Below are positions 42,623 to 53,960 of a stretch of DNA of 64,000 nucleotides, one piece after another. A program made the position numbers and the translations under genes. The stretch's first letter is position 1; the number at the start of each line of letters is the position of its first letter. This stretch comes from the human T2T-CHM13v2.0 reference genome, Homo sapiens: the NCBI RefSeq assembly GCF_009914755.1, contig NC_060926.1; one strand, written 5' to 3'. A model generated the notes under the pieces. The model was not told where the DNA came from, searched no databases, and saw only the letters and a list, made by a program, of their open reading frames with translations.

Positions 42623-45522
42623 ATAATGAGACCTAAATTATAAACTTGGCCCTCCATCATCAAGCCCAAACCTACTTTTCCAGACTTACCTCCAGCTGTT
42701 CCAGAATTACTCGTTCACCCACTAATCTTCCTGCTTTCCAACTTCTTCGTCTTGTATGCTATTGTCCATACTTTATCACCTCCTACTGAAATCCACCCCA
42801 GACCTCCAGGGCCAGCTCAAAAAGTTTCTTCCGTGCTGGGACCTTCCCATATCACCCAGTTGCATGTACAATCAAGGGTCACAGACTGTCAGAGTGGAGA
42901 GGTCCATTTGTAAGGACAGAATTCACCAATTTCATGGATGGCGCAGTACAGTCTTCCAGCTGTAGCTCTTTTTCTCCACTATATTTATTTAACTCTACTC
43001 CATAAATATGTGTTGAGTACCTGGGCTGTACCTAGGTACTATGCTAGGTACCCATGACACAGAGATGAGTCAGTCATATACAGTGACCCCAAGGAAAAGC
43101 AAGGTATACCTACTTACAAGGTATAAAGTTAAACATTGAGTTTGCATGGAGAAGAGTGTGATGAACTCAGGTGGGAGAAATGATTGGAAGGTCAGAGAAG
43201 GCACAATAGAAAAGGGGATATTAAGCTCATATTTTTAGGATAAGATGGATAAGGTGTGTTGGTGGGTACTTGGGGGTAGAGAGTACTGTGTGTATAAGGG
43301 CTGAGCAGTGTGAACTAGCAAGGCCCAATTTGAGAAACACGAGTGGGGGCTGAATTGCTGAAGCACCCACACAGGCAGAAAGGAGAATGCCTTTAAATGA
43401 GACAGGAGAGGCTGGCAGGAGACTGAGGGCCATGTGGACCATATAAGAAGCCTGGACTTTTTCCTGTGGGTTATAGCGTCGTTAAATAGCTCCAAGCTCA
43501 TGGAAGCAAGGACTTTGTCTTGTTCACCACTATATCCCTAGTGCCTAGGACTGAGCCCAAAACATAATAGATCATCTTAGTTTGGATTCACCCAAAGGGA
43601 ACCTTGAAAAGAGGATTGGGTGCAGGTGGTCTAGGTGGCAGGTCATCCCTGCAAGCACAAGTGAAGGAAGGGGAAAGTGAGAGAAGGAAAGGAGAAAAGC
43701 CAATACACAGAATGTTGGTGAGCAGGTTGTTGCTGTGGGCAATTGGGAATTGACCCTGCTGGGGATTCCCGAGGATCCCTGTGGAAGTTGTCTCAAATTT
43801 ATCCCACCGAGGGGAGGATACATTGGAATATTTATCCAGTAACACAGCCTTTTTTTTTTTTTTTTTTTTTTTTTTTGAGACAGAGTCTTGCTTTGTTGCC
43901 CAGGCTGGAGTGCAATGGCACGATCTTGGCTCACTGCATCCTCTGCCTCCCAGTTTCAAGAGATTCTTGTGCCTCAGCCTCCCAAGTAGCTGGGATTACA
44001 GGCTCCCACCACCATGTCCAGATAATTTTTGTAGTTTTAGAGATGGGGTTTCGCCATGTTGGCCAGGCTGGTCTTGAACTTCTGACCTCAGGTGATCCAC
44101 CTGCCTCAGCCTCCCAAAGTGCTGAGATTACAGGCGTGAGCCACCACGCCCAGCTAACTCAGCCTTTAAAGTGTTGATGATTGCCCCTGAGGGTGTTAAG
44201 TCCCAGGCACTTCAGGGCTGTCTGGTGCACAGGTGTGCAAGTTCTCCTGGTGTTCCAGAAAACCCGCAGGACGAGAATCAGAGTGTTTCCAGGTTTCGAG
44301 GTGGGAAGCTGTCAGCACACAGACGTTGTCCACGTGCTTGCTGCAGGTAACCTCAGAGATGGGCCATTGGATATGAGGCAGGGCACCTGCCTGGTCTGCT
44401 GCACAGGTGTTCAATATCTATTGCACAAGTACGTCGTATGTATGTCTTCCTTCCCTGCCTAGCCTTCAATTGCCTTGAGGCAGGAACTATGTATTGCAGA
44501 GGCCAGGCACAGTAAAGCACAAATCTTTACAAATGTGGGTTGCATAAAAGAAAGTAAAATGTTTGATGGGGAAAAGTAAAGTGGGTGGTAAGGGTCAACC
44601 TAGCTAATAAAAATAGGTATAAATAAATATGACTAGTTGAGCATCATATTTATCGATGTCCTTACAAGCAAAGCGGCAGGGGAGAGGACATATATTGGTG
44701 GCATCATTGAGCCTGTATACTAAAGGACTCTCTTGTAATTTCTCTGTATTCCATAGTGGAGGGGCTTGATATTTTCCCTTGTGCTCCCACTTATGAGGAT
44801 TGAATGAGCTGACTACCCAATGAACACTGAAAATTAACAAAACAAAATAAATGAGCTGAGTGTGCAGGTGCTTTGAGAAACATAAAACTTGAAGCATGGG
44901 ACCTGCTGGAGCTTGGTTGGGTTGAACATTGGTGGCTAGACTCCCCTTTCCCAGGGGAAAATTGACCATAGGTACCAAAAGTTAAATGTGCATAGCCTTT
45001 GGCTGTGGAATTGTTTGTGGATTCTTGGGGTGGGGCTGGTATGACTGCCGTTTAGGGGACCCTAATGCTGAACAGGTACCATGGACCTCTGAAGGCAGAG
45101 CAGGGCCCAGACCTGCTTGACCTGGGGTCTGGAGGGGGTGGATTTCCTTCTATCAGGGGAAAGAAGACCAGTAAGACACAACTGAAGGCTGCGTGGGGAT
45201 GGCTGCCTTGCCACCCTGCCTTTCACCTGCTTTAGAAATGACCCATGGAAGGAAAAAGGCATCTGAAACAAGGCCTTCGGACAACCAGGGGCTGGCTGTC
45301 TGCACCCACTCCCCAGGCTTCCCTGCATTTGGCTCCCACCTCTCCCAGCTCTCACCTGGGAGGCTCTGGCTTGGTCCCCCGGCCACCAATTCTGCCTCCA
45401 GACAAGTCTGCTGAGTTTTTTTTGAAAATTGACTTTAATAATCCAGATTTGGTTCAGCCTGAAATTGTCCTTCCTGAGAGCATCAGGGGAAGTATGAGGA
45501 ATGGGAAGCTTCCCATGTGGCC

Positions 45523-45573
45523 TTAATCAGCTACGAGGTTGTGACTCAGAGTAGGGAATGGCTCAAAGACGTC
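45523..45573 (-). pseudogene. Paralogue last exon: DVFEPFPTLSHNLVAD*, open
   Basis: 51 nt, acceptor ttcttcccattttag; stop at the same position as RESP18 ...NPVAD*. Confidence 0.9.
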
Positions 45574-51950: not shown

Positions 51951-52859
51951 TAACTGGCCAGGCATGGTGGCTCATGCCTGTAATCCCAGCATTTTGGGAG
52001 GCCGAGGCGGGCAGATCACCTGAGGTCAGGAGTTTGAGACCAGCCTGATCAACATGGAGAAACCCTGTCTCTTACTAAAAATACAAAATTAGCCGGGCAT
52101 GGTGGTGCATGCCTGTAATCCCAGCTACTCCGGAAGCTGAGACAGGAGAATCGCTTGAACCTGGGAGGTGGAGGTTGCAGTGAGCTGAGATCGCGCCATT
52201 GCGCTCCAGTTTGGGTAACAAGAGCGAAACTCTGTCTCAAACAAACAAACAAACAGACAAAGAACGACAAAAAAACACTAATAACTTTAACAAAATGGAA
52301 GCACAGCGTTCCCCAAACTTTAGTTATTTGAGAACCACCAACATGATTTTTGACTTATCTTTGTACCATTGTGCTATTACTGGCTTACTCTTCAAGTTGA
52401 TGATTCATGCTTTTTATTTATGTGAAATTATTTTAAATTTATTATTTATTTAGAGACAGGGTCTTACTCTGTCTCCCAGGCTGGAGTGCAGTGGTGCAAT
52501 CTTGGCTCACTGCAACCTCCGCTTCCCAGGTTCAAGCAATTCTCCTTCCTCAGCCACTCGAGCAACTGGGATTACAGGTGCGCACCACCAAGCCCAGCTA
52601 ATTTTTGTATTTTTAGTACAGATGGGATTTCACCGCGTTGGCCAGGCTGGTCTCTAACTCCTGACCTCAAGTGATCCACCCGCCTTGGTCTCCCAAAGTG
52701 CTGTGATTACAGCTGTGAGCCACCGCGCCCAGCCAAGTGAAATTATTTTAAAGGGCAACTTTGCTACTGTAAATGGAAAAAACCGTGTTTCTTGGCGTAA
52801 GTAGAAGCTAATTATAAAATATAAAGACAGACTCCAAAGAAAAAGAAGATATGTGTAGA

Positions 52860-53960
52860 GAGACCCCAGCACCCTACCCGTGAGGAGGGACTTCAGGACT
52901 GAGGCAGTAGTCCCAGGACTGATAAGTAAAGAGCGACCTTGGGCGCCCCCCCGCCGCTGTCATCAGCGCTGACGCCCTGGACCCACACAGCGGCGGGGTT
53001 TGGTTTGACGTGGCTCCCAAAGGCGAGGGCGGAGCTGGGGAAGGTGAGAGCACCCAGGCATCCGCACAGGCGTGACCCTCTGCCCACCAGGCACCCTGCC
53101 CACACAGCGCGCCGCAGGAAGCCCTCCGCATTGGTGTCCAAGCTCGAGCACCAGGTGGAGGAACCCGTGGCCATCGGGTGTGGGGTGTGCAGGGTGCGGA
53201 GAAGGCTAGGATTCCTCCCAATCCTCTGCTGCGCCCTCCCCCAGCCGCCTCCCCAGGTTGAGGGGAGGCCCCGGCCCAGGACTGGGCTCTTCCCGAGGTG
53301 GGGACTGGATGCCCGCGCTCCGGACTCCTGCCGGAGATGCCAACCCCCCAGCGCTGGGCACCTTGCCTTGACCCCTCAGCGCGTCTCACATGGCCCGGAT
53401 CTCGGTCCCTTGGGCACTCCCTCTTGCCCAACTCCGAATTGGAGTTCTTGTAGTTCTAGTTTCCACCCCGTCTTCCGACGTTTAAGACCCCGCTTCCAAG
53501 ACGCCCTCTGGCTTTCTCTTCCCATCCCGCACACTTCCCTAGCTTCTGAGCTGTGTGCACCCACCAACCCGCAGCCCTCCCTCAGGATCGCCCCTGCCCT
53601 TCCCCCAGGTTTCCTCCTGACGGTGGGGACTAATGGCGTCCCAGCCCCCCGGGCGGCTGCTCAGCAGCAGGAAGCAGAGAATCAGAGGCACCCCCGCTGG
53701 GCCCCGAGCCCCATGCGCGCGCAGGGGCCCCCGCATCTTGTTGGGCGCGCGCTGCCCCGCCTGCACCGCAGCGACCGCGGCCAGAGCCAGGCCAGGCGGC
53801 TCTGCGCGTCCCTCTCTCCGCAGCGCGGCCAGTCGGAGGCCGGCTGCAGCAAGGTCCCCAACCCCGGCTCTCCCGTGTCTTGGCGTCAGAGTCCTGCTTT
53901 TAAGAGTGGGGTGTTGCCTGAATATGGTCGACCCCTATCTAGAATCCCAACCCCCTACCC
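52860..53960. promoter_or_regulatory. CpG island at the paralogue 5' end, with decayed RE1 (52953-52973) and CRE half-site (53884-53888)
   Basis: Dense CpG/GC content similar to the PTPRN and RESP18 5' ends. Confidence 0.75.
53622..53736 (-). pseudogene. Paralogue exon 1: MRGPLRAHGARGPAGVPLILCFLLLSSRPGGWDAISPH, intact
   Basis: AAGATGCGG start context identical to PTPRN; 115 nt as in PTPRN; donor gtcaggaggaaac identical; LLLSSRPGG conserved. Confidence 0.92.

What the first reader, a model, noticed from the sequence alone, without database searches (positions are those of the whole stretch)
45434..53900. Hidden full-length third member of the PTPRN/RESP18 family upstream of RESP18
Seen in sequence: seven exons collinear with RESP18/PTPRN on the same strand, each with canonical splice sites. 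Exon 1 (115 nt) encodes MRGPL...LILCFLLLSSRPGGWDAISPH; exon 2 (51 nt) CLFA*RLCSYLEVCTK; exon 3 is 104 nt; exon 4 (128 nt) LFWKDDITQ...; a 32-nt mini-exon; exon 5 SPMTRVSREQCF...; last exon DVFEPFPTLSHNLVAD*; then ATTAAA. The ORF track shows only pieces of this. Established: RESP18 is a secretory-granule lumenal protein homologous to the IA-2 ectodomain N-terminus. Inference: this is a sister gene of RESP18, probably still coding in some mammals. I do not know of a named human gene here but cannot check annotation.
Basis: partly seen in the sequence, partly recalled or inferred. Interest (0 to 1): 0.92.

Follow-up and report, generated by a model that had tools for sequence, protein, structure and literature searches.

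The report
Dead ancient RESP18 sister gene
Between RESP18 and DNPEP on human chromosome 2 lies an old, intron-containing sister copy of RESP18 that keeps all its exons and splice sites but is broken by stop codons and a frameshift, so in people it is a partly transcribed pseudogene, not a hidden protein-coding gene.

Summary
Seven minus-strand exons at 45423-53736 are collinear with PTPRN and RESP18 and match them in size and phase. All 12 splice junctions are AG/GT. Homology extends into introns, the 5'UTR, the 3'UTR and the ATTAAA signal. Exon 4 alone passes Pfam's RESP18-domain cut-off (42.5 bits against 25).

The human copy is not intact. It has a TGA in exon 2, a TAG and a missing base in exon 3, and a 32-nt mini-exon where relatives imply 33 nt. 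RefSeq's predicted lncRNA LOC107985835 reuses exon 3, exon 4 and the last exon.

The copy is ancient: 62-64% intron identity to RESP18, dS about 0.55-0.6. It shares derived features with RESP18 but keeps the PTPRN-type 51-nt cysteine exon, which RESP18 retains only as an intronic relic.

One unnamed predicted protein, P0003, groups with it at 99/96 support, apart from RESP18 proteins. The lineage therefore exists in at least one other species. The few lesions and intact splice sites suggest long constraint and a late loss.

My paper searches found no description of it. It is the fourth human RESP18-domain locus, counting PTPRN2.

The parts
53737..53788 (-). 5'UTR / proximal promoter remnant homologous to the PTPRN 5'UTR. 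It lies inside a CpG-rich stretch (53400-54000: GC 0.65, CpG o/e 0.69).
   Evidence: blastn block 53604-53788 against PTPRN 3952-4143, 74% over 195 nt, E 2e-27. CpG profile.
53622..53736 (-). Exon 1, 115 nt, the same size as the PTPRN exon 1 CDS. It holds the ATG and a signal-peptide-like segment, and is open.
   Evidence: 22 of 38 residues identical to PTPRN exon 1, E 9e-10. GT donor.
50046..50096 (-). Exon 2, 51 nt, the PTPRN-type cysteine exon that keeps 3 Cys. In-frame TGA at 50080-50082, where PTPRN has CGC (Arg).
   Evidence: 11 of 16 residues identical to PTPRN exon 2. blastn 50032-50181 against PTPRN 2530-2678, 72%. AG/GT.
49760..49863 (-). Exon 3, 104 nt (RESP18 105, PTPRN 114). In-frame TAG at 49790-49792 and a 1-nt deficit near 49777, which shifts the frame.
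   Evidence: Alignment. Frames. Coordinates. It also forms most of exon 1 of lncRNA LOC107985835 (hub table).
48251..48378 (-). Exon 4, 128 nt, the same size as RESP18 exon 3. It is the core of the RESP18 domain and is open.
   Evidence: Pfam PF14948 42.5 bits, E 8e-11. 47.1 bits in the whole-genome six-frame scan. 51% identity to RESP18, E 1e-10.
47976..48007 (-). Mini-exon, 32 nt, AG/GTGAGT. It is homologous to the mini-exon seen in P0003 and in unnamed RESP18-type proteins. Those imply 33 nt, so this one is one base short.
   Evidence: The 33-nt figure is inferred from 11 residues in P0003.
47763..47864 (-). Exon 5, 102 nt: RESP18's 90 nt plus 12 nt before the donor. It is open.
   Evidence: 78% nt identity over 90 nt. 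tblastn E 3e-6.
45423..45573 (-). Last exon: 16 open codons, TAA at 45523-45525, 3'UTR, ATTAAA at 45434-45439.
   Evidence: blastn 45359-45593 against the RESP18 last exon 22120-22351, 70%. 11 of 14 residues identical to the C-terminus of P0005. Coordinates.

Best explanation
This is an ancient, unprocessed (intron-containing) tandem paralogue of RESP18. It belongs to the PTPRN-RESP18 cluster and is a pseudogene in the human genome.

Proposed history (inferred):
1. The 5' part of PTPRN (promoter and exons 1-4) was duplicated and acquired new 3' exons, giving a small secreted RESP18-type gene.
2. That gene duplicated again, giving RESP18 and this copy.
3. This copy kept the PTPRN-type 51-nt cysteine exon. 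RESP18 let that exon decay inside its intron 1.

The ancestral product (inferred) was a signal-peptide-bearing protein of the secretory-granule lumen. It would have carried the exon-4 disordered segment that, in ICA512, holds the condensing activity.

In the human lineage (shown), the gene is disabled by a TGA in exon 2, a TAG and a 1-nt loss in exon 3, and a frame-breaking mini-exon. Translation from the conserved ATG would stop after 43 codons.

The remnant is still partly transcribed according to RefSeq's predicted lncRNA LOC107985835. That model splices exon 3, exon 4 (donor 5 nt downstream) and the last exon.

The intact splice sites and the low number of lesions suggest it was a working gene for most of its history and was lost late (inferred).
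For: Paralogy:
- Collinear protein hits to all homologous exons.
- Collinear DNA homology through introns, 5'UTR and 3'UTR to RESP18 and PTPRN.
- Pfam RESP18 domain above the cut-off.
- In the whole assembly, the Pfam scan gives 7 matches in all: 2 on RESP18, 2 on PTPRN, 1 here, 1 weak on the chr7 locus taken to be PTPRN2, and 1 stop-ridden on chr1 at E 5.6.
- The DNA of exons 4-5 matches only itself and RESP18, at 67%.

Sister relationship to RESP18:
- Both share an exon 3 that is 9 nt shorter than PTPRN's.
- Both share the 128-nt exon 4, where PTPRN's donor is lost.
- Both share exon 5, the last exon, the stop region and ATTAAA.

Retention of the exon RESP18 lost: the relic at 25837-25925 has an 8-nt deletion.

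Pseudogene state: TGA, TAG and the -1 deficit are verified. The spliced lncRNA model has no Met-initiated family-frame ORF.

Age: intron K2P 0.51-0.56; dS 0.55-0.60 to both paralogues.

A separate lineage: in a 12-row tree, this locus plus P0003 form a clade at 99/96, and the 9 RESP18-type rows form another at 89/87, with PTPRN as outgroup. P0003's best window hits are all to this locus, including its intron 1 and exon 2.

Late loss: a neutral simulation at K=0.27 expects 3.4 stops, about 3.8 frameshifts, and P=0.0015 that all 24 splice-site bases survive. Observed: 2 stops, 1-2 frameshifts, and 24 of 24 bases intact.
Against: - Pairwise dN/dS is about 0.6 to both PTPRN (117 codons) and RESP18 (140 codons). 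That does not separate constraint from neutrality.
- Coding exons are only modestly more similar to RESP18 than introns are: 68.6% against 62-64%.
- Stop counts alone do not reject neutrality: P(2 or fewer) is 0.32 at K=0.27.
- The simulation uses RESP18 as a stand-in ancestor, equal rates in both lineages and an indel rate taken from the introns, so the timing is rough.
- P0003, the only cross-species witness, lacks the conserved Met, reads exon 2 out of frame and lacks exon 3. It may itself come from a broken gene or a poor model.
- Transcription rests only on a predicted RefSeq model in the hub table. I saw no expression data.
- I could not see GENCODE or Ensembl, which may already list a pseudogene here.
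Confidence: 0.88

Rival explanations
1. The locus is still a protein-coding member of the family in humans. The apparent stops would be bypassed by alternative splicing, by readthrough, or by intact alleles in other people.
For: Exons 1, 4, 5 and the last exon are open. All 12 splice junctions are canonical. A CpG-rich, promoter-like stretch persists at exon 1.
Against: - Exons 2 and 3 hold a TGA, a TAG and a frameshift in the homologous frame.
- Skipping exons 2 and 3 (51+104 = 155 nt) does not restore the frame into exon 4.
- The RefSeq lncRNA model has no Met-initiated ORF in the family frame.
- Three to four independent lesions are unlikely to be polymorphic together.
Confidence: 0.02
2. 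The remnant has been taken over for a non-coding role, as a functional lncRNA or a regulatory element for RESP18, PTPRN or DNPEP. That role, not past coding constraint, would explain why the splice sites and the CpG-rich 5' end persist.
For: RefSeq predicts a spliced lncRNA that uses three of the old exons, and lists an enhancer at 47251-47460 inside the locus (hub table). CpG o/e is 0.69 at exon 1, close to PTPRN's 0.76.
Against: - The lncRNA model uses only 4 of the 12 junctions, one of them shifted by 5 nt, so it cannot explain the other 8.
- I found no paper naming LOC107985835.
- The model is only predicted.
- This reading is compatible with, and not exclusive of, the pseudogene reading.
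Confidence: 0.15
3. It is a recent or mosaic copy produced by segmental duplication or gene conversion between PTPRN and RESP18, not an old independent lineage.
For: The 5' part resembles PTPRN more, with exon 2 and intron pieces. The 3' part resembles RESP18.
Against: - Identity to either relative is only 60-78% in exons and 62-64% in introns.
- There is no high-identity tract anywhere.
- PTPRN downstream of its exon 4 has no counterpart of exon 5 or the last exon within the 10 kb examined.
- P0003 forms a separate clade with this locus.
Confidence: 0.03

Closest known systems
[quoted passage not shown]
   Same: - Same strand and the same cluster.
- Same exon order and phases.
- 128-nt domain exon, mini-exon, 90-nt-type exon, and a last exon with ATTAAA.
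- Introns still alignable at 62-64%.
- Pfam RESP18 domain.

   Different: - Only 51-54% protein identity in exons 4-5.
- Keeps the 51-nt cysteine exon, which RESP18 has only as a decayed intronic relic.
- No counterpart of RESP18's 85-nt exon was found.
- Broken reading frame in human.
PTPRN (ICA512/IA-2) N-terminal RESP18 homology domain, exons 1-4
   Same: - Exon 1 has an identical length of 115 nt and 58% identity.
- Exon 2 has an identical length of 51 nt, with three conserved Cys.
- 5'UTR and intron pieces are alignable.
- Exon 4 is homologous to the segment reported to carry condensing activity.
(PMC10201709, passages seen)
   Different: - No mature ectodomain, transmembrane or phosphatase-like part.
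- Exon 3 is 9-10 nt shorter.
- Exon 4 runs past PTPRN's donor.
- It has RESP18-type 3' exons.
PTPRN2 (phogrin/IA-2beta) RESP18 homology domain, chr7
   Same: The same domain family. I take the weak chr7 match to be PTPRN2 from its position and from the literature, not from an annotation call.
   Different: Very distant: 23.4 bits, below the cut-off, in the genome scan. It lies on another chromosome and is a full receptor-type gene.
Unprocessed (duplicated) transcribed pseudogenes
   Same: Introns are retained, there are disabling stops and a frameshift, and parts are spliced into a non-coding transcript.
   Different: It is unusually old yet has every splice junction intact. It preserves an ancestral exon that the working sister gene has lost.

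Membership tests
RESP18 domain family (Pfam PF14948) | Match to the family profile above the curated cut-off | tested here: met
   Exon 4 translation alone scores 42.5 bits against the cut-off of 25, E 8e-11. It scores 47.1 bits in the six-frame genome scan. Of the 3 exon translations of this locus that were submitted, exons 1 and 5 matched no family.
RESP18 domain family (Pfam PF14948) | N-terminal signal peptide followed by the domain (secretory-pathway protein) | tested here: inconclusive
   Exon 1 is 22 of 38 identical to the PTPRN exon that encodes its signal sequence, and it keeps the hydrophobic run LILCFLLLSS. No signal-peptide predictor was available.
PTPRN/RESP18 tandem gene cluster | Shared exon sizes, phases and order, and synteny | tested here: met
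   Exon sizes are 115/51/104/128/32/102 nt, against PTPRN 115/51/114 and RESP18 106/105/128/90. Same strand, collinear, 12 of 12 junctions AG/GT.
Functional protein-coding gene (human) | Uninterrupted reading frame from start to stop | tested here: not met
   TGA at 50080-50082, TAG at 49790-49792, and a 1-nt deficit in exon 3.
Unprocessed pseudogene | Homology to a parent or sister gene including introns, plus disabling mutations | tested here: met
   Intron blocks are 62-64% identical to RESP18, against 42% for shuffled controls. Lesions as above.
Transcribed pseudogene | Evidence of transcription | not testable with these tools
   The only evidence is the predicted RefSeq model XR_007072848.1 in the hub table. 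No expression data were available.
Distinct orthologous lineage (not a human-only copy) | Orthologue in another species that groups with it and not with RESP18 | tested here: met
   P0003 groups with this locus at 99/96 in a 12-row tree. P0003's exon 1, 4 and 5 hits are all best to this locus. There is only one such protein, and its organism is not known to me.

The most novel reading that the evidence does not exclude
In many non-primate mammals this locus is an intact, expressed fourth RESP18-domain gene. It would encode a small secreted granule-lumen protein that combines the IA-2-type cysteine-rich N-terminus with a RESP18-type tail, a surviving intermediate between PTPRN and RESP18. Humans lost it relatively late. 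Mammals would then differ in their set of granule-lumen condensing proteins, and rodent Resp18 or Ptprn knockouts may be buffered by a paralogue that humans lack.
Probability: 0.45. Interest if true: 0.65.

Novelty: new member of a known kind. Interest (0 to 1): 0.5.

Why it matters
The passages I read present the RESP18 homology domain as shared by three proteins: ICA512/PTPRN, phogrin/PTPRN2 and RESP18 (PMC10201709; PMC9900141). This locus adds a fourth lineage.

It documents how RESP18 arose from the 5' end of PTPRN, because it preserves the cysteine exon that RESP18 lost.

For human annotation, it explains what lncRNA LOC107985835 is: the spliced remnant of a dead gene.

If the orthologue is intact in model mammals, it would matter for reading Resp18, Ptprn and Ptprn2 knockouts, and for studies of secretory-granule cargo condensation.

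In humans themselves it is an ordinary, if well preserved, pseudogene.

Tried and rejected
- **Counterpart of RESP18's 85-nt exon 5.** blastn at word size 7 and a MAFFT alignment found only a doubtful relic around 47540-47600 with no acceptor. I treat that exon as absent.
- **A stop in the last exon.** I first read the last exon in the frame RESP18 uses after its 85-nt exon, where this locus shows a TGA at a Trp codon.
- **The search for homologous proteins, near and shorter lengths.** The near-length search returned only P0002, an ORF 100% identical to the human intron/exon sequence on a 564-nt ENA contig. The shorter-length search returned nothing. That library therefore seems to hold no mammalian proteomes.
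- **ESM Atlas with P0003.** The sequence is held letter for letter with a very poor model (pLDDT 0.30). There was no usable feature hit, and all structure rows had TM below 0.3.
- **PTPRN's alternative exon 3634-3722.** I tested whether it matches the block of intron 1 that P0003 translates. No significant match was found.
- **Papers.**
  - Searches for LOC107985835, RESP18-like, RESP18L, RESP18P, RESP18P1 and 'RESP18 pseudogene' found nothing relevant.
  - RESP18 combined with pseudogene, paralog or duplication, and RESP18 with DNPEP and PTPRN, gave lists. I opened passages in 3 papers from those lists and in 4 further papers. None describes this locus.
  - AC053503.4 and AC053503.12 are named as genes near RESP18 in PMC10916235. 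I could not map those names to coordinates.
- **P0007 and P0008.** These two of the 13 hits (674 and 1887 aa, six short stretches each) were not examined.
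Full report
**What is there**

I joined the annotated coding parts of RESP18 and of PTPRN exons 1-3 by coordinates and ran them by tblastn against the whole 64-kb window. Besides the genes themselves, both queries hit a collinear series on the minus strand between 47.7 and 53.8 kb:

| Place (window) | Matches | Identity | E-value |
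|---|---|---|---|
| 53736-53623 | PTPRN exon 1 | 22 of 38 | 9e-10 |
| 50094-50053 | PTPRN exon 2 | 11 of 14 | 0.003 |
| 49867-49778 | PTPRN exon 3 / RESP18 exon 2 | - | 0.013 (PTPRN exon 3); 0.077 (RESP18 exon 2) |
| 48406-48254 | RESP18 residues 66-112 | 51% | 1e-10 |
| 47867-47775 | RESP18 residues 113-143 | 52% | 3e-6 |

Reading the DNA gives this exon map:

| Exon | Coordinates | Length |
|---|---|---|
| 1 | 53622-53736 | 115 nt |
| 2 | 50046-50096 | 51 nt |
| 3 | 49760-49863 | 104 nt |
| 4 | 48251-48378 | 128 nt |
| mini | 47976-48007 | 32 nt |
| 5 | 47763-47864 | 102 nt |
| last | 45423-45573 | 151 nt |

The last exon has its stop at 45523-45525 and ATTAAA at 45434-45439. All 12 of 12 junctions are AG/GT.

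**It is homologous, not a chance resemblance**

- The exon 4 translation alone passes Pfam's RESP18-domain cut-off, at 42.5 bits against 25. The two RESP18 control exons scored 66.7 and 54 bits. The exon 1 and exon 5 translations of this locus matched no family.
- blastn finds collinear blocks that run through introns and UTRs:
  - 47783-48425 against RESP18 23939-24581: 67% over 667 nt, E 5e-42
  - 45782-46745 against 22544-23566: 64% over 1043 nt
  - 45359-45593 against RESP18's last exon: 70%
  - 53604-53788 against PTPRN exon 1 plus 5'UTR: 74%
  - 50032-50181 and 49726-49861 against PTPRN exons 2 and 3
  - two pieces of PTPRN intron 3
- Global alignments of the introns give 62-64% identity (K2P 0.51-0.56). 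Twenty shuffled controls gave 42%, maximum 50.5%.
- A six-frame scan of the whole assembly with the Pfam model gave 7 matches: two on RESP18, two on PTPRN, one here (47.1 bits), one weak on chr7 (23.4 bits, which I take to be PTPRN2), and one stop-ridden match on chr1 at E 5.6.
- The DNA of exons 4-5 matches only itself and RESP18, at 67%.

This is therefore the fourth RESP18-domain locus in the human genome, and the third in this cluster.

**Relationship to its neighbours**

With RESP18 it shares features that PTPRN lacks:
- An exon 3 that is 9 nt shorter than PTPRN's.
- A 128-nt exon 4 that runs through the place where PTPRN has its donor.
- The mini-exon, exon 5 and the last exon with its ATTAAA.

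No counterpart of exon 5 or the last exon was seen in the 10 kb of PTPRN downstream of its exon 4.

With PTPRN it shares the 51-nt exon 2, which encodes three cysteines. RESP18 has only a relic of that exon in its intron 1, at 25837-25925. The relic still has AG and GT at its ends but carries an 8-nt deletion and stops.

The simplest history is a partial duplication of PTPRN's 5' end that gained new 3' exons, followed by a second duplication. After that, RESP18 lost exon 2 and this copy kept it. This order of events is inference.

**State in human**

In the ancestral frame:
- Exon 2 has a TGA at 50080-50082, where PTPRN has CGC.
- Exon 3 has a TAG at 49790-49792.
- Exon 3 is also one base short of RESP18's 105 nt, near 49777. 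After that point the other frame reads RQPVPQ, which matches RQLMSQ in PTPRN and QQIIPQ in RESP18.
- The mini-exon is 32 nt. P0003 has 11 residues there, implying 33 nt, so including it would also shift the frame.

Exons 1, 4, 5 and the last exon are open. Translation from the conserved ATG stops after 43 codons.

RefSeq's predicted lncRNA LOC107985835 uses exon 3 (extended upstream to 49919), exon 4 (donor 5 nt further downstream) and the last exon. Its spliced sequence has no Met-initiated ORF in the family frame.

So in human this is an unprocessed pseudogene. By the predicted model only, it is partly transcribed.

**Evidence from other species**

The tools hold no mammalian genomes. A phmmer search with exon 4 against 1.84 billion representative proteins gave 13 proteins at E up to 0.001:
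- P0002, an ORF on a human-identical ENA contig.
- Nine RESP18-type proteins.
- Two long proteins that I did not examine.
- P0003, 226 aa, 62% identity.

P0003's best matches in the window are all to this locus:

| P0003 part | This locus | Rival match |
|---|---|---|
| exon 1 | 55% over 51 | PTPRN 41%, RESP18 32% |
| exon 4 | 65% over 43 | - |
| exon 5 | 66% over 35 | RESP18 58% |

P0003 also matches intron 1 (53207-52977, E 0.015) and exon 2 read in another frame (E 0.006).

On 96 hand-registered columns covering exon 1, exon 4 and exon 5, this locus and P0003 form a clade with 99/96 support. The nine RESP18-type rows form another at 89/87. PTPRN is the outgroup. P0003 matches Pfam RESP18 at 75.8 bits.

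The lineage therefore exists in at least one other species, and the duplication predates that split.

There are caveats. P0003 has no Met at the conserved start, reads exon 2 out of frame and lacks exon 3. It may be a poor model or may come from a gene that is also broken.

P0005, a RESP18-type protein, ends GFFEPLPTVGHNLVAD.

**Was it ever a working gene?**

- Pairwise dN/dS is about 0.6, both to PTPRN (117 codons) and to RESP18 (140 codons), with dS 0.55-0.60. This is uninformative by itself.
- If the copy had drifted since the duplication (about 0.27 substitutions per site, half the intron distance), a simulation expects 3.4 premature stops and about 3.8 frameshifts. It gives a probability of 0.0015 that all 24 splice-site bases survive.
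- Observed: 2 stops, 1-2 frameshifts, and 24 of 24 bases intact. The stop count alone does not reject drift (P = 0.32). The splice sites do.
- I infer long purifying selection and a comparatively late loss, fitting K of roughly 0.03-0.10. The rates are rough and rest on stand-in assumptions.
- The 5' end is still CpG-rich (o/e 0.69 at 53400-54000, against PTPRN 0.76 and RESP18 0.54).

**What the ancestral product would have done (inference)**

It would have been a secreted or granule-lumen protein with a signal sequence, the cysteine-rich stretch and the exon-4 segment. In ICA512 the condensing activity was mapped to the exon-4 product, residues 91-109 (PMC10201709, passages seen). The homologous stretch here begins [10 protein letters not shown].

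**Literature**

- I found no paper naming LOC107985835 and none with RESP18-like, RESP18L, RESP18P or 'RESP18 pseudogene'.
- Searches combining RESP18 with pseudogene, paralog, duplication, or DNPEP plus PTPRN gave nothing on this locus. I base that on the search listings and on the passages I opened in PMC9900141, PMC7498332, PMC6457024, PMC11802530, PMC10916235 and PMC2695444.
- These searches cover open-access text only.
- I could not see GENCODE or Ensembl. AC053503.4 and AC053503.12 are named as genes near RESP18 in PMC10916235, and one of them could be this locus.

**Verdict**

Whether it still codes elsewhere is open. It is a new member of a known kind and of moderate interest.

Noticed in passing
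27395-27397 (-), and 27929-27945: At the position where PTPRN and the pseudogene have their ATG, RESP18 in this assembly reads ATA. The hub table's coding start, 27397, falls on that codon. The alternative upstream exon 27929-27945 supplies an in-frame ATG and a 42-residue N-terminal extension.
   Followed up: partly
25837-25925 (-), RESP18 intron 1: This is a decayed relic of the PTPRN-type 51-nt exon 2. It still has AG and GT at its ends but carries an 8-nt deletion and stops. RESP18 therefore lost this exon after the duplication.
   Followed up: yes
24142-24172 (-), RESP18 intron between the 128-nt and 90-nt exons: This is a mini-exon remnant encoding [10 protein letters not shown], identical to that stretch of P0003. 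It is 31 nt long in human, where 33 nt is implied in other species' proteins, which fits its being skipped in the selected human transcript.
   Followed up: partly
53572-53621, 27241-27291, 3952-3969 (-): The first 18-50 nt of intron 1 are conserved among all three paralogues; read through, they give ..QEETW.. / ..QEEPW... Some unnamed RESP18-type proteins (P0005) translate this stretch. It may be an alternative donor or a splicing element.
   Followed up: no
52977-53207 (-), intron 1 of the pseudogene: This block is translated in P0003 (..SSLDT.AE.F.LRR.., 35% over 82 aa, E 0.015). It is either a sequence conserved between species or an alternative exon. It does not match PTPRN's alternative exon 3634-3722.
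   Followed up: partly
about 53955-54040: A (CA)n/(TG)n microsatellite lies just upstream of the CpG-rich exon 1 region. It shows up as THTHTH / CVCVCV runs in the ORF list.
   Followed up: no
36134-36172 (-): Residues 109-121 of P0003 give a weak hit here (8 of 13 identical, E 0.42), between RESP18 and the pseudogene and out of order. It is probably chance.
   Followed up: no
literature (PMC7498332, table passage): RESP18 is listed as lost in two Myotis bats. If the sister gene is intact there, it could be a substitute. This is untested.
   Followed up: no
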